Part shown: positions 8,257-49,106 of the stretch, piece by piece
Layout: each line of letters opens with the position of its first letter
How positions within the stretch are numbered: the stretch's first letter is position 1
Source: a phage
Strand: one strand, 5' to 3'
Length of the DNA: 64,000 nt
NCBI GenBank assembly: GCA_033664045.1
Contig: GCA_033664045.1_3674.1
Position numbers and translations under genes: made by a program
Notes under the pieces: model-generated
Database searches by the model: none
What the model saw: the letters and a program-made list of their open reading frames with translations, nothing else
Told to the model about the DNA's origin: nothing

Positions 8257-8613
8257 ATGTCTAAAGTTACTTATCGTGCAGCTATTTACTGCAATGAGCA
8301 CCCAATCAATAATGATGGTCACTGCCTTTTTAAAGAAAATCAGTTGGGCTGCATTGTCCTCCCTGATGAAGGGGAAGGTTATCTGATTGCATTGACAGGG
8401 TTTGAGCCTGAAGCTCTGGAAGCCAATCTGGACTACCTGGTGGAAGAGGGTGCTGCAGACTTGGTTGCCAATGGCCTCTCTGTAAGCCTTGACGAAGTGG
8501 AGCGCTTCATGGGCAATTACCGTGTAGTGCGTGAGTTTACTATCGAGGTGGAAACTCCAGAGTGGGGTAGCACTGAAACTAATGCCGAAGAAAAAGAAGA
8601 GGAGGTAGAATAA
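8257..8613 (+). CDS. Hypothetical acidic protein
   Basis: AGGAGG site then ATG 8257. Confidence 0.55.
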   Translation: MSKVTYRAAIYCNEHPINNDGHCLFKENQLGCIVLPDEGEGYLIALTGFEPEALEANLDYLVEEGAADLVANGLSVSLDEVERFMGNYRVVREFTIEVETPEWGSTETNAEEKEEEVE

Positions 8614-29483: not shown

Positions 29484-29909
29484 ATGATCTATGAAATGCC
29501 AAAACTGATTCGCGACGATGCCCAAAACGCTCACACCATTATTATGGGCAAGCGCATGGATATTATTTGTCATAAAGATTTCTGGGAAGGGAGTTACTTC
29601 ACAGAATATTTTGGTAAACTGGATAATGGTCTGCTGATCCAGTTCTACACCGATGCGGAAAACAACATTCACTGGGAGTTCGAAACTGAAGATATCCATA
29701 AACTTTTCACCTTCCTAGGTATTAAGGTTGAGGCCAAGTTCGAAGAAGGTGAGTGCGACGATTGTGGATTCTACGAGGTAACAGATTTCTATCTCCCAAG
29801 TGGTGAGAACCTTTACTATGAAAGCCACTTCGGCAACTCAAATATGCCACAAGGTTGGGATGAGTTTTTTGAAATTGCGGAAGAGGAGCTGGCATACCGT
29901 GATTATTGA
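29484..29909 (+). CDS. Hypothetical acidic protein
   Basis: Track ORF. Confidence 0.5.
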   Translation: MIYEMPKLIRDDAQNAHTIIMGKRMDIICHKDFWEGSYFTEYFGKLDNGLLIQFYTDAENNIHWEFETEDIHKLFTFLGIKVEAKFEEGECDDCGFYEVTDFYLPSGENLYYESHFGNSNMPQGWDEFFEIAEEELAYRDY

Positions 29910-34191: not shown

Positions 34192-34596
34192 ATGAATAAG
34201 AACGTACGCCGCATCATGAACGAACTGGCAAACGATGAAAAAATTATTGATATGCATTTGGTCAACATTTGCCGCCGTTGTGTAACATACAACAACCGCG
34301 CCGCAAAAGCGCGTGAGATGAACGCAAAAGGCACCTTAAAGCCATTCCAGGTGGTGGTAAAGGCCATTAAAGATGTAACTAATACGGCAAACCAGGTACA
34401 GGGGAACACCAACGAGAGTACCAATATTGATCCGTCTTACGTAATGAAACGGATCCGGACTTGCAAGAATAAAGAGCAGGTGTATAACGTCATAGATTGG
34501 CTGGACTCCCTGGGCGATGTGGTTTACAATAGGTTTTCTGCAGCTATTGAGATTCAGTTAGACAGGTTGGACGGGAAAGTACTAAAAACTTACTGA
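34192..34596 (+). CDS. Hypothetical protein
   Basis: AAAGGAAAAAG site. Confidence 0.55.
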   Translation: MNKNVRRIMNELANDEKIIDMHLVNICRRCVTYNNRAAKAREMNAKGTLKPFQVVVKAIKDVTNTANQVQGNTNESTNIDPSYVMKRIRTCKNKEQVYNVIDWLDSLGDVVYNRFSAAIEIQLDRLDGKVLKTY

Positions 34597-34643
34597 GTTT
34601 ATTTTTAGATGGCCTTGACTTCAGGGCCATCAATAAAGTAAAC
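34597..34643. repeat. Conserved intergenic element, copy 1
   Basis: ATTTATTTTTAGATGGCCTTGACTTCAGGGCCATCAATAAAGTAAAC with stem ATGGCC/GGCCAT; begins right after the stop codon. Confidence 0.75.
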
Positions 34644-34676
34644 TAGTCTCAACTAAGCGAAAAAGGGGGCTTTAAG

Positions 34677-34796
34677 ATGAGCACTACACGCCAATACACA
34701 AAGGTAACTATTATCGTTTGCGTTGTCGGTTACATCCTGGCGCAAATGTTAATGAGTAGCGCCAACAGTTTTGCAAAATTTTTCTTAAATTTTTAA
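34677..34796 (+). CDS. Small membrane peptide (39 aa)
   Basis: Hand-translated; AAAGGGGG site; hydrophobic core VTIIVCVVGYILAQMLM. Confidence 0.4.
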   Translation: MSTTRQYTKVTIIVCVVGYILAQMLMSSANSFAKFFLNF

Positions 34797-34825
34797 TTGA
34801 CAAGCTAACCCAAATCGGTATACTT
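34797..34825 (+). promoter_or_regulatory. Sigma70-like promoter
   Basis: TTGACA, 16-bp spacer, TATACT. Confidence 0.55.
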
Positions 34826-34875
34826 AAACACGTAAACGGGAAAACTTCCCAGAACACACAAAAGGAGAAAACACC

Positions 34876-35217
34876 ATGACTACTATGACCGCCACAGAAA
34901 AAGCTATGCAGATCGCCGCGCTGAAAAAACAGATCGCAGACCTTGAGAACAAGATCGATAACTTTGAAATCGACGAGGACAAGTACGACGAAAACTATGA
35001 CGAATGGTTAGACGAGATCTACGGCGAAATTATGATCGGAAACATTTCTTTTCTTCCGTCGCGTATCCTCAAGGAGCTGGATCCTATCGCTTACCGCTGC
35101 GGATTTAGCGACTACATCGACAGCTTGGATATTGAGGACGATGAAGAGTACCAAGAATTACAGACAGAGCTCGAAGAAGTGAAAGAAGAGCTTGCAGAAC
35201 TGGAAGAAAACGAGTAA
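34876..35217 (+). CDS. Highly acidic protein (DNA-mimic candidate)
   Basis: D/E-rich throughout with a coiled-coil-like N-terminus; AAGGAGAAAA site. Confidence 0.55.
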   Translation: MTTMTATEKAMQIAALKKQIADLENKIDNFEIDEDKYDENYDEWLDEIYGEIMIGNISFLPSRILKELDPIAYRCGFSDYIDSLDIEDDEEYQELQTELEEVKEELAELEENE

Positions 35218-35265
35218 AATTTATTTTTAGATGGCCTTGACTCCAGGGCCATCAATAAAGTAAAC
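35218..35265. repeat. Conserved intergenic element, copy 2
   Basis: AAATTTATTTTTAGATGGCCTTGACTCCAGGGCCATCAATAAAGTAAAC. Confidence 0.75.
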
Positions 35266-35307
35266 TTTATACTGTTAACACTGAACTAATGCATAGGAGT
35301 TAAAACC

Positions 35308-35553
35308 ATGGCAGCACTAATCACCAAATATTATGCCCCTACCAACACCAAAAGCGCCCGTATCATGGTAAAAGGCTTCGGACGTAAAAAGGTTTACACC
35401 TGGGATTATGCCTTAGACACAGAAGACAACTACACCAACGCGATGACCGATTTTATTAATGATCTGAACACGCGGATCTTGACAAATTATCAAATTACCG
35501 ATATTGCCTATATAGGGGAAGGCGGGATCTGTTTTGTCGGTATCGTCAAATAG
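35308..35553 (+). CDS. Hypothetical protein
   Basis: ATAGGAG site. Confidence 0.5.
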   Translation: MAALITKYYAPTNTKSARIMVKGFGRKKVYTWDYALDTEDNYTNAMTDFINDLNTRILTNYQITDIAYIGEGGICFVGIVK

Positions 35554-35630
35554 GCTGTTTTTTCGGTGGTCCTGGTAGCAGGGCCATCTATAAAGATAGT
35601 TTATCAACACAATGAAAGGAGAAAGTACAC

Positions 35631-36390: not shown

Positions 36391-36651
36391 ATGCGTAAAT
36401 TAAAAAATTTTGATAAAGTTGATGTTATCCTGAATAATTTTTACTACTGCAACAATAAGGCTATTTGGTGGCGTGATAGTTCCACCGATAAAGTCAAGGC
36501 GCGCTTTCTTCAGGGGCACTGGCAAGGCCGCCCAGTGATTAAAATCATGGGGCAATTGGTAGCGTTTAAAAATTGCCGCCGTGTTGATGACGTTGAGGAG
36601 ATTTTAAACATTTTGCGCCACAATAATTTAAAAAATAGTGTTGACAAGTAA
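36391..36651 (+). CDS. Hypothetical protein
   Basis: AAAGGAG site. Confidence 0.5.
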   Translation: MRKLKNFDKVDVILNNFYYCNNKAIWWRDSSTDKVKARFLQGHWQGRPVIKIMGQLVAFKNCRRVDDVEEILNILRHNNLKNSVDK

Positions 36652-36668
36652 ATCTCAATAAGTATAAT
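36641..36668 (+). promoter_or_regulatory. Sigma70 consensus promoter
   Basis: TTGACA, 16-bp spacer, TATAAT. Confidence 0.6.
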
Positions 36669-36725
36669 TAAACACACAGGCGGGAAAACTTCCCGCCACT
36701 AACAAAGAAAACAGGAGAAAATATC

Positions 36726-38737: not shown

Positions 38738-38938
38738 ATGAGCAACAATATCCGCGTTATTAACTTCAAAAAAGAAGAAAAAATTGCTGTGCTGGTTGAT
38801 GGTCAAGAAATCTTCAAGGGCGACTATGAAGATCATCAAACGGCGATTAGTATCACTCGCGTGATCGGTTACCATAATTTCTACCCCCAAGGCGCTGAGG
38901 CAGCAGTTAAACGAATCAAAGAGATTGTAGGCCTGTAA
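38738..38938 (+). CDS. Hypothetical protein
   Basis: AAAGGAGAAA site. Confidence 0.5.
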   Translation: MSNNIRVINFKKEEKIAVLVDGQEIFKGDYEDHQTAISITRVIGYHNFYPQGAEAAVKRIKEIVGL

Positions 38939-38986
38939 AATTTATTTTTAGATGGCCTTTACTTCAGGGCCATCAATAAAGTAAAT
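38938..38986. repeat. Conserved intergenic element, copy 3
   Basis: AAATTTATTTTTAGATGGCCTTTACTTCAGGGCCATCAATAAAGTAAAT. Confidence 0.75.
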
Positions 38987-39029
38987 TTAAACCCTGTTAA
39001 AATAATCAGTGCAAAAAGGAGTAATGATC

Positions 39030-40907: not shown

Positions 40908-41192
40908 ATGAAAAAGATGATCGCAGTGGTTGCCCTGGTTATTGGACTTAATGCGCCTGTAATGGCTAAAGAGCTGGCAAAAGAGGTAGATCTAACTGAT
41001 ATCCATGCCGTCAATCAAATCGGTGTTACTTATCGGTTATGCCTTGCCGCAAAAACTTTCCAGGATGGCACAACAGAGTACTACGGATTCGAAGGCATCC
41101 GGTGCGGTGAGCTTGCTCGCGACCTTAAAGAAGATCCAGACCTGGAGGATCTGCCGATAACCGTAAACGGGAAAACTTACGTGAACCGTTAA
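40908..41192 (+). CDS. Secreted small protein (signal peptide)
   Basis: MKKMIAVVALVIGLNAPVMA signal-like N-terminus; AAAGAGGA site. Confidence 0.5.
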   Translation: MKKMIAVVALVIGLNAPVMAKELAKEVDLTDIHAVNQIGVTYRLCLAAKTFQDGTTEYYGFEGIRCGELARDLKEDPDLEDLPITVNGKTYVNR

Positions 41193-45446: not shown

Positions 45447-45662
45447 TCAGTCCAGCGGTTCATCCTCTACTTCACTGAAATCAATGTTCATGGTCTCTTC
45501 CCAACCATCGATCTCAGCACAAGAGTGGAGTTCTTTAGGGTTTACTCCCAAAGCCTCAGCAACAGAGTCTATATTTAACACCTCTGGCAGGTATGATTCA
45601 TCGAATTCAAGGTAAATCAGGCCACGAGTGTTGTCAGCTCCACCAAATATTTCTATCTTCAT
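45447..45662 (-). CDS. Hypothetical acidic protein
   Basis: Track ORF; last gene of the leftward block. Confidence 0.45.
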   Translation of the reverse strand: MKIEIFGGADNTRGLIYLEFDESYLPEVLNIDSVAEALGVNPKELHSCAEIDGWEETMNIDFSEVEDEPLD

Positions 45663-45783
45663 GAAATCTCCTCTGGAAATGAGAGTGTGAACAGGGTTTC
45701 ATACGTTCCAGTGCACAGGAATTATGCACGTTTGCCTCTTCAGGCCATGCTTTAGCATGAGAAACCTGTGTGGGCTCGGTGCT

Positions 45784-46089
45784 TCATAGTCTACCACCTC
45801 TGAACTCCTCGTGCTCAGGCATAATAGAGAACCAGATATCTACGATGTCTTCCCACGTTAAGTCATCAGCCTCAGGATCTACCTGGAGCGAAGATGGAGA
45901 ATCTTCAGAATCGAAGTTTTCCTCTTTAACTGGCTCATCCAAGGGACATATAGTCACTCCTTTGGATGTCTCTTCAGATGCATGTGTGTTGATCATGTTC
46001 CACCAGTGAGTATTCCTGCAACAGCCGCTATGGACGTAATGATCATCAGGATCACCACTAAAACTTCGGACAATGTTTTCATTGTGCAC
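45784..46089 (-). CDS. Hypothetical acidic protein
   Basis: Track ORF; candidate minus-strand promoter at 46115-46143. Confidence 0.45.
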   Translation of the reverse strand: MHNENIVRSFSGDPDDHYVHSGCCRNTHWWNMINTHASEETSKGVTICPLDEPVKEENFDSEDSPSSLQVDPEADDLTWEDIVDIWFSIMPEHEEFRGGRL

Positions 46090-48756: not shown

Positions 48757-49106
48757 TATTCGTCCTCCTCTTCGGTGCCTGCTTCCAGTAATAAGTTAAG
48801 AATATCTTCTGCACAAGGCTCATAGAACTCTTGGCCTTCATTATCGATGATTTTGTAGTCATCTCCACGAATAATCAGTGGATCACTCTCAAAATTATCG
48901 AGACCTTTAACAACGACAACACGATCGATTGCCATCATTGTAAGAACTTTATCGACATTTTCCTCTGCTACACCATACTGCAGCAGAATGTCTTTGGTAG
49001 GAGGAACAGCATCCACAACAACACCGTTACCAAAACCTTCCGGAAGTTTAGCTAAAATATCTTCCGGAACCGCATTCACATCAAAACCGGTAATTTCTAC
49101 TTTCAT
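48756..49106 (-). CDS. Hypothetical protein (MKVE… acidic-tail family)
   Basis: Track ORF. Confidence 0.5.
   Translation of the reverse strand: MKVEITGFDVNAVPEDILAKLPEGFGNGVVVDAVPPTKDILLQYGVAEENVDKVLTMMAIDRVVVVKGLDNFESDPLIIRGDDYKIIDNEGQEFYEPCAEDILNLLLEAGTEEEDE

What the first reader, a model, noticed from the sequence alone, without database searches (positions are those of the whole stretch)
34876..35217. Strongly acidic small protein, a DNA-mimic candidate
The 113-aa product is dominated by Asp and Glu (for example DIEDDEEYQELQTELEEVKEELAELEENE) with a coiled-coil-like N-terminus. Known phage DNA mimics that block restriction enzymes or other DNA-binding defence proteins have this composition. 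It has its own promoter at 34797-34825.
Basis: inference. Interest (0 to 1): 0.5.

Follow-up and report, generated by a model that had tools for sequence, protein, structure and literature searches.

The report
Conserved acidic early phage protein
This is a real, strongly conserved early gene of an rV5-like coliphage whose product has almost the same size and charge as the DNA mimic Ocr of phage T7 and belongs to a very large, phage-only, unnamed protein family, but nothing computed here shows that it mimics DNA or blocks restriction.

Summary
ORF 34876-35217 (+) encodes 113 aa with 35 Asp/Glu and 9 Lys/Arg (net -26, computed pI about 4). It is the most acidic ORF in the window and sits behind a near-consensus sigma-70 promoter and a good ribosome-binding site. 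The window is a Vequintavirus (rV5/FV3-like coliphage).

The gene is under strong purifying selection (dN/dS 0.05-0.08). It belongs to PHROG 9294 (unknown function), part of a family with at least 3,856 clusters at 50% identity. I found the family only in phages; it has no Pfam model.

A confident AlphaFold model shows a compact about 50-residue head (helix, beta-hairpin, two helices; motif LKELDPIAYRCGFSDY). Heptad N- and C-terminal helices flank the head. Every relative examined is acidic, including head-only forms, and charge is conserved where residue identity is not.

No sequence, profile or fold match links it to Ocr, ArdA or any other solved structure. Relatives lie in early regions of other phages.

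Published BASEL plating data show that phages carrying this gene are destroyed by type II and III restriction but plate almost normally on two type I systems. That rules out broad protection and leaves a type I role open.

Best reading, at moderate confidence: an early polyanionic decoy for a nucleic-acid-binding host protein, target unknown.

The parts
34797..34824 (+). Sigma-70-type promoter, TTGACA-16 nt-TATACT
   Evidence: 11 of 12 consensus positions. It starts immediately after the stop codon of the upstream 39-aa ORF. Other + strand ORFs in 33.3-36.7 kb have similar sites upstream of them. The region holds 31 promoter-like sites against 19.1 +/- 4.3 in shuffles.
34838..34850 (+). Short 5'UTR hairpin GGGAA-AAC-TTCCC, part of a promoter-plus-leader cassette found again elsewhere in the window
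   Evidence: Family D4: 34797-34862 and 36641-36706 are 74% identical. Family D7: the hairpin motif also occurs at 41162-41186. Function not tested.
34863..34867 (+). Ribosome-binding site AGGAG, 8 nt before the ATG
   Evidence: sequence. family D2, shows the same RBS-to-ATG layout at six genes.
34876..35217 (+). Coding sequence: 113-aa acidic protein, PHROG 9294
   Evidence: phrog_9294, E 5e-54; dN/dS 0.05-0.075.
34891..34959 (+). N-terminal heptad helix, residues 6-28, near-neutral charge
   Evidence: helix 6-28; hydrophobic a/d positions 13, 16, 20, 23, 27 and 30 are conserved. This arm is absent from head-only relatives.
34972..35139 (+). Conserved head domain, residues 33-88: helix, beta-hairpin, two helices; motif YDxxLDExYG...SRxLKELDPIAYRCGFSDY
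35143..35208 (+). C-terminal acidic heptad helix, residues 90-111, within the acidic C-terminal stretch (residues 90-113 hold 13 Glu and 1 Lys)
   Evidence: helix 90-111; a/d positions Y92, L95, L99, V102, L106 and L109 are conserved, and the exposed positions are Asp/Glu in 55-79% of relatives.
35214..35267 (+). Repeated intergenic stem-loop element that overlaps the stop codon; the stem is at 35230-35253. It probably marks or stabilises the transcript 3' end and carries a promoter-like site for the next gene.
   Evidence: family D1: four copies; three near-exact copies against 0 expected.: -23.3 kcal/mol, z -5.6. TTGACT-18 nt-TAAACT at 35237-35266. It is not a canonical terminator, because no T-run follows the stem.

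Best explanation
The gene encodes an immediate-early protein made by the host RNA polymerase from its own strong promoter. The product is a small polyanion. It has a compact, conserved head of about 50 residues mounted on an antiparallel pair of heptad helices, and the C-terminal helix is lined with glutamates.

I propose that it acts as a stoichiometric decoy. The acidic surface occupies the positively charged nucleic-acid-binding surface of a host protein, either a defence nuclease or a housekeeping DNA- or RNA-binding factor. The conserved head would supply the fold and the specificity. The helices, or in shorter relatives an acidic tail, would add charge and probably mediate dimerisation.

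Shown here: the gene is real and constrained; its expression signals look early; the charge is conserved across a very large family that I found only in phages; the head matches no solved fold.

Inferred: that it binds a host protein, that binding is by charge mimicry of nucleic acid, and what the target is.

The target is not a type II or type III restriction enzyme. Type I restriction-modification remains one candidate among several; others include RecBCD-like nucleases, nucleoid proteins, SMC-type complexes and RNA polymerase.
For: - Composition matches the best-studied DNA mimic. This protein has 113 aa, 35 acidic and 9 basic residues. Ocr has 116 aa, 34 acidic and 6 basic.
- Charge, not just sequence, is conserved. 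All 218 relatives from the first two searches have pI below 5, with a mean Asp+Glu fraction of 0.30 and a median net charge of -27. The 116 mostly head-only relatives recovered with a head-only profile have a median net charge of -22 in 89 aa.
- About 24 positions are Asp/Glu in at least 60% of sequences while residue identity is low. The near-invariant residues are mostly glycines, a proline, a serine, aromatic and hydrophobic residues, a cysteine and two aspartates; I read them as mainly fold-determining, which is an inference.
- The expression context is early. There is an 11/12 sigma-70 promoter and a good RBS. Homologues lie before the replication or RNA-polymerase genes in two Autographiviridae. 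PAK_P3 gp86 is a homologue (hhalign probability 97.7%) and lies inside the RNA-seq-defined early region gp74-gp112 (PMC4933390).
- The gene is standalone. No neighbour is conserved across lineages.
- I found it only in phages. There are at least 3,856 clusters. There was no true plasmid hit, no hit in 5,426 complete E. coli genomes, and one weak hit in 185,579 species genomes with a strict pattern.
- The family spans phages of Escherichia, Klebsiella, Pseudomonas, Vibrio, Providencia, Proteus, Microbacterium, Clavibacter and Gordonia, and marine phages. That range fits a target shared by many bacteria.
- BASEL Vequintaviruses that carry the gene plate at EOP 0.06-0.83 on EcoKI and 0.2-1.0 on EcoCFT_I, although they have 9-15 and 4-6 sites. 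Bas01, with 3 EcoKI sites, drops to about 1e-4. The window shows no EcoKI site avoidance: 8 sites against 6.7 expected.
Against: - No similarity of sequence, profile or fold to any known DNA mimic or anti-restriction protein.
- The charge geometry of the model could not be compared with B-DNA, and no binding partner was tested.
- Purifying selection is very strong (dN/dS 0.05-0.075), and the head motif is nearly invariant across distant phages. That is unusual for fast-evolving counter-defence genes, and would fit a conserved enzymatic or assembly role equally well.
- The phages carrying it are wiped out by type II and III restriction.
- phi92-like BASEL phages resist type I equally well, yet none of three tblastn searches gave a sign of a homologue in Escherichia phages outside the Vequintavirus group; this rests on unchanged organism counts, not on a full hit list. 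The type I phenotype therefore does not track the gene.
- High acidity plus heptad helices also occurs in proteins that have nothing to do with DNA mimicry.
Confidence: 0.4

Rival explanations
1. A specific Ocr/ArdA-like inhibitor of type I restriction-modification. The protein would bind the DNA groove of the methyltransferase core and so account for the near-normal plating of Vequintaviruses on type I hosts. This is the narrow version of the first reader's idea.
For: - Size and charge are Ocr-like.
- Bas57-59 plate at EOP 0.06-1.0 on EcoKI and EcoCFT_I despite 9-15 and 4-6 sites, whereas Bas01 with 3 EcoKI sites drops to about 1e-4.
- In another type I-resistant BASEL phage, Bas63, the authors point to a Lar-like anti-restriction gene.
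- tblastn found no RalR homologue in Vequintaviruses.
- Type I systems are widespread, which would fit the family's broad host range.
Against: - Bas60-62 show the same type I resistance, and no family member was detected by tblastn outside the Vequintavirus group of Escherichia phages.
- There is no relationship to Ocr or ArdA.
- The family is absent from plasmids, where type I inhibitors are common.
- Ocr is reported to block type III systems as well, yet these phages are fully restricted by EcoCFT_II and in most experiments by EcoP1_I.
- Several other acidic orphan ORFs in the same window are equally untested candidates.
Confidence: 0.17
2. A host-takeover factor that binds a conserved host protein through the invariant head motif, for example RNA polymerase, a protease or chaperone, or a replication or division protein. 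The acidity would be secondary (solubility, electrostatic steering), and no nucleic-acid mimicry would be involved.
For: - The near-invariant motif LKELDPIAYRCGFSDY is kept across phages of Gram-negative and actinobacterial hosts, which suggests a specific conserved interface or active site.
- Purifying selection is strong.
- The context is early and the gene is standalone.
Against: - Most invariant residues look structural rather than like an exposed interface; this is inference without coordinates.
- The negative charge is kept even in head-only forms and in unrelated C-terminal tails, which points to charge as a selected property.
Confidence: 0.25
3. A phage-internal helper rather than a host effector: an acidic chaperone or assembly factor for basic phage proteins, or a packaged internal protein.
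For: - The constraint is core-gene-like.
- In some metagenomic proteins the head occurs twice inside 200-560-aa multi-domain proteins whose segments are joined by repeated AE(S/T)F-type linkers, which could be processing sites.
Against: - All of those resemblances are below threshold and are typical of coiled-coil noise.
- The gene lies among promoter-driven small early ORFs, not in a structural module.
- No partner gene is conserved next to it.
- In Autographiviridae and PAK_P3 it is an early-region gene.
Confidence: 0.13

Closest known systems
T7 Ocr (gp0.3), DNA-mimic inhibitor of type I R-M and BREX
   Same: Length and charge are almost identical: 116 aa with 34 acidic and 6 basic residues, against 113 aa with 35 and 9. 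Both are largely helical and are made from an early host-type promoter. Family members in Autographiviridae sit in the same early region where gp0.3 lies in T7 (the T7 position is).
   Different: There is no sequence or profile similarity and no fold match. This protein has a head with a beta-hairpin plus a helical hairpin. Phages carrying it are fully sensitive to type III systems, which Ocr is reported to block. A dimeric state and a DNA-like charge geometry are not established here.
ArdA (Tn916 / plasmid anti-restriction DNA mimic) and the small sArdN/sArdC forms
   Same: Acidic, with a conserved short motif embedded in a variable acidic scaffold. ArdA acts on type I systems, which would fit the BASEL phenotype.
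   Different: There is no Pfam ArdA hit at E up to 10 and no PDB profile hit. ArdA is typical of plasmids and conjugative elements. This family has no true plasmid member and I found it only in phages.
Other small acidic phage DNA mimics: T4 Arn, T7 gp5.9 (RecBCD, MukBEF), lambda Gam, SPO1 Gp46 (HU)
   Same: Small, acidic phage proteins that block DNA-binding host proteins other than classical restriction enzymes (abstracts listed). They illustrate the range of targets still possible here.
   Different: None is matched by sequence, profile or fold. This family is far more widespread across phage lineages and much more conserved in sequence.
PHROG 9294, with the related phrog_9396 and phrog_37123 (unknown function)
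   Same: A true family member: E 5e-54 over the full length. The head alone matches the other two PHROGs at about 1e-10.
   Different: The PHROG entries carry no function, so membership names the family but explains nothing.

Membership tests
DNA-mimic proteins (a functional class, not a homology family) | Small protein with a large excess of Asp/Glu and a low pI | tested here: met
   113 aa, 31% Asp+Glu, net -26, computed pI about 4. Conserved family-wide.
DNA-mimic proteins (a functional class, not a homology family) | Surface carboxylates arranged so that they superimpose on the phosphate backbone of DNA | not testable with these tools
Only the secondary structure and the heptad pattern are known.
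DNA-mimic proteins (a functional class, not a homology family) | Direct, DNA-competitive binding to a DNA-binding protein | not testable with these tools
   Needs pull-down, competition gel-shift or complex prediction. No multimer prediction was available.
Ocr family (T7 gp0.3) | Sequence or profile homology to Ocr | tested here: not met
   Ocr is not among the 25 best of 41 sub-threshold Pfam hits at E up to 10, which are coiled-coil families. No PDB chain of Ocr was matched by the single sequence or by two profiles at E up to 10.
Ocr family (T7 gp0.3) | Ocr-like fold | tested here: not met
Ocr family (T7 gp0.3) | Protects the phage from type I, and reportedly type III, restriction | tested here: inconclusive
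   From published data, not a test of this gene. Carriers Bas57-59 plate at EOP 0.06-1.0 on type I hosts, but are below detection on EcoCFT_II and below detection to 0.57 on EcoP1_I. Non-carrier relatives resist type I as well.
ArdA (PF07275) | Homology to ArdA and carriage on plasmids or conjugative elements | tested here: not met
   ArdA is not among the listed Pfam hits and there is no PDB hit.
PHROG 9294 | Full-length match to the family profile | tested here: met
   E 5.2e-54, 183 bits, residues 1-113 against profile positions 1-119 of 127.
Gas vesicle protein GvpG (name given by NCBI to one partial homologue) | Score above the Pfam gathering threshold for PF05120 | tested here: not met
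   17.9 bits against a cut-off of 30.6, and only over the N-terminal heptad helix. The name on P0035 appears to be an annotation artefact.
Prefoldin-like coiled-coil chaperones | Significant profile or fold match to prefoldin subunits | tested here: not met

The most novel reading that the evidence does not exclude
The protein would be the coliphage representative of a very large family (at least 3,856 clusters at 50% identity), found only in phages, not in Pfam, and with a compact fold unlike any solved structure. The family would be a new structural class of nucleic-acid mimic that neutralises a DNA-binding host factor shared by Gram-negative, actinobacterial and marine hosts.

In Vequintaviruses it could be the unrecognised reason why these phages, described as exceptionally restriction-sensitive, nevertheless plate almost normally on type I R-M hosts.
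Probability: 0.15. Interest if true: 0.7.

Novelty: new variant of a known kind. Interest (0 to 1): 0.42.

Why it matters
Known DNA mimics are few, structurally unrelated to one another, and useful both as probes of defence systems and as tools. This family is unusually large and well conserved. It spans phages of enterobacteria, pseudomonads, vibrios, actinobacteria and marine hosts, has no Pfam entry and matches no solved fold.

If it is a mimic or decoy, finding its target would assign a function to thousands of hypothetical early phage proteins at once. It might also reveal a host factor that very different phages all need to neutralise.

The BASEL phages already provide a genetic system for the test, including published plating data on defined restriction systems. 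If the protein instead has a phage-internal role, it becomes an ordinary conserved orphan.

Tried and rejected
- Pfam and NCBIfam scans gave only sub-threshold coiled-coil hits (GvpG, HalX, SlyX, Prefoldin and similar). I rejected these as heptad and low-complexity noise.
- PDB searches by single sequence and by two profiles found nothing meaningful. The best hit was a 30-residue stretch of cytochrome bc1 core protein 2 at E 0.08.
- The AlphaFold database library (afdb50) was unavailable. The viral structure library (BFVD) returned only uncharacterised phage proteins.
- Domain fusions gave no lead. Longer family members carry tandem heads, a Kyano_Gp96 domain of unknown function, or Cys-rich tails.
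- Gene-neighbourhood analysis over 39 loci found only lineage-specific synteny. The window neighbours have no Pfam hits.
- Searches of plasmids, complete E. coli genomes and species-representative genomes found no non-phage homes.
- Literature searches by locus tags and PHROG ids found nothing. The accessory-gene screen and the PhageMaP study do not cover this gene.
- I tried to explain the type I phenotype by a RalR homologue; tblastn found none in Vequintaviruses.
- I tried to tie type I resistance to presence of the family. I rejected this as evidence because phi92-like phages show the same phenotype and no homologue was detected in them.
- Other acidic ORFs of the window are also orphans.

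Full report
**1. What is there**

The window is part of a Vequintavirus (rV5/FV3-like coliphage). The 2 kb around the finding are 96% identical to phage FV3 and match 121 phage records.

ORF 34876-35217 on the + strand encodes 113 aa. It has 22 Glu, 13 Asp, 7 Lys and 2 Arg, giving a net charge of -26. The computed pI of 4.05 is the floor of the routine. It is the most acidic of the 168 ATG-initiated ORFs of at least 60 aa in the six frames of the window.

Expression signals:
- TTGACA-16 nt-TATACT lies at 34797-34824, an 11/12 match.
- A short leader hairpin lies at 34838-34850.
- AGGAG lies 8 nt before the ATG.
- The promoter-plus-leader cassette recurs at 36641-36706, and other + strand ORFs between 33.3 and 36.7 kb have similar promoter-like sites upstream.

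This layout of small genes each with its own promoter fits an early region transcribed by host polymerase. Every annotated record calls the gene a hypothetical protein.

**2. The gene is real and constrained**

About 115 phage records carry it at 88-100% amino-acid identity. Against phage Mangalyan there are 8 synonymous and 2 non-synonymous differences (dN/dS 0.05). Against an 88%-identical metagenomic relative, dN/dS is 0.075.

**3. The family**

The protein is a full-length member of PHROG 9294 (E 5e-54). Its central part also matches phrog_9396 and phrog_37123. All three are of unknown function.

A word-indexed search gave 71 relatives. A profile search of 1.84 billion cluster representatives gave 3,856 at E up to 1e-3 and 1,607 at E up to 1e-10. 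A head-only profile gave 737 more sequence clusters, none with a Pfam domain or an informative name.

Alignments show three parts:
- The N-terminal heptad helix has conserved hydrophobic positions 13, 16, 20, 23, 27 and 30.
- The head spans residues 33-88, with consensus YDxxLDExYGxVxIxGxxFxxSRxLKELDPIAYRCGFSDY. D69 is conserved in 99% of sequences, A72 in 97%, L65 in 96%, D79 in 93%, P70 in 89%, Y73 in 87% and C75 in 86%.
- The C-terminal heptad helix has a/d positions at Y92, L95, L99, V102, L106 and L109. Its exposed positions are Asp/Glu in 55-79% of sequences.

Many relatives of 56-104 aa have only the head plus a short acidic tail. The head is therefore the core unit and the helices are accessories.

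**4. Acidity is a selected trait**

All 218 relatives collected in the first two searches have pI below 5. Their mean Asp+Glu fraction is 0.30 and their median net charge is -27. The 116 relatives recovered with the head-only profile have a median net charge of -22 in 89 aa, including forms whose tail is unrelated to the coiled coil.

About two dozen alignment positions keep a negative charge in at least 60% of sequences while residue identity is low. The near-invariant positions are mostly glycines, a proline, a serine, aromatic and hydrophobic residues, a cysteine and two aspartates. My reading is a conserved scaffold that displays a polyanionic surface.

**5. Structure**

AlphaFold2 with 32 sequences gives mean pLDDT 91.3 and pTM 0.70. 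The elements are helix 6-28, helix 34-49, strands 52-54 and 57-59, helices 61-68 and 70-83, and helix 90-111. The head alone is modelled the same way, with pLDDT 86.8.

- PDB sequence and profile searches find nothing.
- Foldseek against viral models finds only uncharacterised proteins, from Pseudomonas, Pseudoalteromonas, Clavibacter and Gordonia phages.

The head therefore matches no solved fold in these searches, and the protein is unrelated to Ocr, ArdA, Arn, Gam or gp5.9.

**6. Where the family lives**

I found it only in phages:
- No match turned up in 5,426 complete E. coli genomes.
- One weak hit came from 185,579 species-representative genomes, using a strict pattern.
- Phage hosts include Escherichia, Klebsiella, Citrobacter, Serratia, Providencia, Proteus, Pseudomonas, Vibrio, Aeromonas, Acinetobacter, Microbacterium, Clavibacter and Gordonia, plus marine metagenomic phages.

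In Providencia phage PS3 and Pseudomonas phage Lepni01 (both about 41 kb) the homologues lie in the first 2-3 kb, before the primase or RNA-polymerase genes.

PAK_P3 gp86 is a member (hhalign probability 97.7%, E 1.4e-12). It lies within gp74-gp112, the region shown by RNA-seq to be transcribed early (PMC4933390).

Across 39 loci no neighbouring gene is conserved beyond lineage-level synteny. The window neighbours are orphans.

**7. Restriction**

The BASEL paper states that Vequintavirinae are exceptionally susceptible to R-M systems and seem to lack effective protection (PMC8594841). Its raw data are more nuanced.

| System (type) | Bas57-59 plating (EOP) | Sites per genome, Bas55-59 |
|---|---|---|
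| EcoKI (I) | 0.06-0.83 | 9-15 |
| EcoCFT_I (I) | 0.2-1.0 | 4-6 |
| EcoRI (II) | about 1e-4 to 2e-3 | 26-38 |
| EcoRV (II) | below detection in all but one experiment | 92-110 |
| EcoCFT_II (III) | below detection | 287-306 |
| EcoP1_I (III) | below detection to 0.57 | 198-218 |

Bas59 carries a 96%-identical copy of the gene (P0010). For comparison, Bas01 with 3 EcoKI sites drops to about 1e-4 on EcoKI. The window shows no EcoKI site avoidance, with 8 sites against 6.7 expected.

The protein therefore cannot be a general restriction blocker. A type I-specific role is compatible with the data.

The link is weak, however. The phi92-like phages Bas60-62 resist type I equally well, with EOP 0.1-1.3 and 12-14 and 7-9 sites. 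Three tblastn searches gave no sign of a homologue in Escherichia phages outside the Vequintavirus group; this rests on unchanged organism counts, not a full hit list. For Bas63, which also plates normally on both type I hosts, the PhageMaP authors describe a Lar-like anti-restriction gene. tblastn found no RalR homologue in Vequintaviruses.

**8. Interpretation**

The best-supported reading is an immediate-early polyanionic decoy that binds a nucleic-acid-binding surface of a host protein. The head would provide the fold and specificity, and the acidic helices or tails would provide charge and probably dimerisation (confidence 0.4).

A type I R-M inhibitor is a sub-case (about 0.17). Rivals are a host-takeover factor that acts through the invariant motif without mimicry (0.25) and a phage-internal chaperone or assembly role (0.13).

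The very strong sequence constraint and the breadth of hosts argue for a target or function common to many bacteria. They are somewhat atypical of fast-evolving counter-defence genes.

**9. Novelty and score**

The sequence is already in databases as a hypothetical protein, so the gene itself is not new.

What is not described anywhere I could search is the family as such: its size, its apparent restriction to phages, its conserved charge and its orphan fold. The same holds for the mismatch between the published summary and the raw type I plating data.

As a candidate it is a new structural variant within the known kind of small acidic early phage proteins.

Noticed in passing
window 34592-34645, 35214-35267, 35549-35602 (61% identical), 38935-38988: A repeated intergenic element of about 54 nt, TTTATTTTTAGATGGCCTTGACTYCAGGGCCATCAATAAAGTAAAC. 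It forms a strong stem-loop (-23.3 kcal/mol, z -5.6). A -35-like TTGACT sits in or next to the loop, and a TAAACT lies 18 nt downstream. One copy overlaps the stop codon of the acidic gene and another lies upstream of the preceding small ORF. It resembles the promoter-early stem-loop cassettes described for T4-type phages; that comparison is from memory and was not checked.
   Followed up: partly
window 34797-34862, 36641-36706 and 41162-41186: A promoter-plus-leader cassette (TTGACA...TATAMT, then a GGGAAAACTTCCC hairpin) is repeated upstream of at least two early genes, and the hairpin motif recurs a third time. It may be a shared 5'UTR regulatory or stabilising element.
   Followed up: no
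window 34677-34796 (+): A 39-aa hydrophobic ORF (MSTTRQYTKVTIIVCVVGYILAQMLMSSANSFAKFFLNF) lies directly upstream. Its stop codon abuts the -35 box of the acidic gene's promoter. The equivalent ORF is annotated as a gene in phage Mangalyan (gp200).
   Followed up: no
BASEL S1 Data and S5 Table (PMC8594841), phages Bas55-62: The raw plating data show that Vequintaviruses and phi92-like phages are almost unaffected by the two type I R-M systems (EOP about 0.06-1.3) despite 9-15 EcoKI and 4-9 EcoCFT_I sites. The paper's text summarises them as exceptionally susceptible to R-M and lacking effective protection. I found no mechanism proposed for the type I resistance.
   Followed up: partly
L010:588-2267 (P0125) and relatives P0104, P0113, P0129, P0150, P0163: Metagenomic proteins of 200-560 aa contain two tandem copies of the head domain followed by unrelated segments. 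The segments are separated by recurring AE(S/T)F(G/E)A-type linkers, and two of them (P0125, P0150) end in a hydrophobic C-terminal stretch followed by KKLRK; P0129 ends similarly. They look like polyproteins with repeated processing sites. Their neighbours have no PHROG hits.
   Followed up: partly
L006:1683-1886 and L006:2931-3131 (Providencia phage PS3): This 41-kb Autographiviridae phage carries two head-only paralogues of the family in its early region.
   Followed up: no
L009:2504-2840 (Citrobacter phage Tr1): The homologue is interrupted by an in-frame stop between the N-terminal helix and the head, and the record annotates three short ORFs there instead. This is either a pseudogene or a sequencing error.
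   Followed up: partly
phage records MG065655-MG065682: Seventeen unannotated records labelled Campylobacter phage, 128-141 kb, are 94-99% identical to rV5-like coliphages in this region. The host label is probably wrong.
   Followed up: no
P0035 and P0023: A partial homologue is named 'gas vesicle protein GvpG' by NCBI, and another is named 'predicted nucleic acid-binding Zn-ribbon protein' by JGI. For GvpG, the window protein scores only 17.9 bits against the Pfam cut-off of 30.6, over the heptad helix alone. The JGI name was not tested; I take both to be spurious.
   Followed up: partly
window 45450-45996 (-), 48759-49106 (-), 8257-8610 (+), 29484-29906 (+): Several other small, strongly acidic ORFs (net charge -15 to -21) occur in the window. 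None has a Pfam hit. They are equally untested candidates for host-directed acidic proteins.
   Followed up: partly
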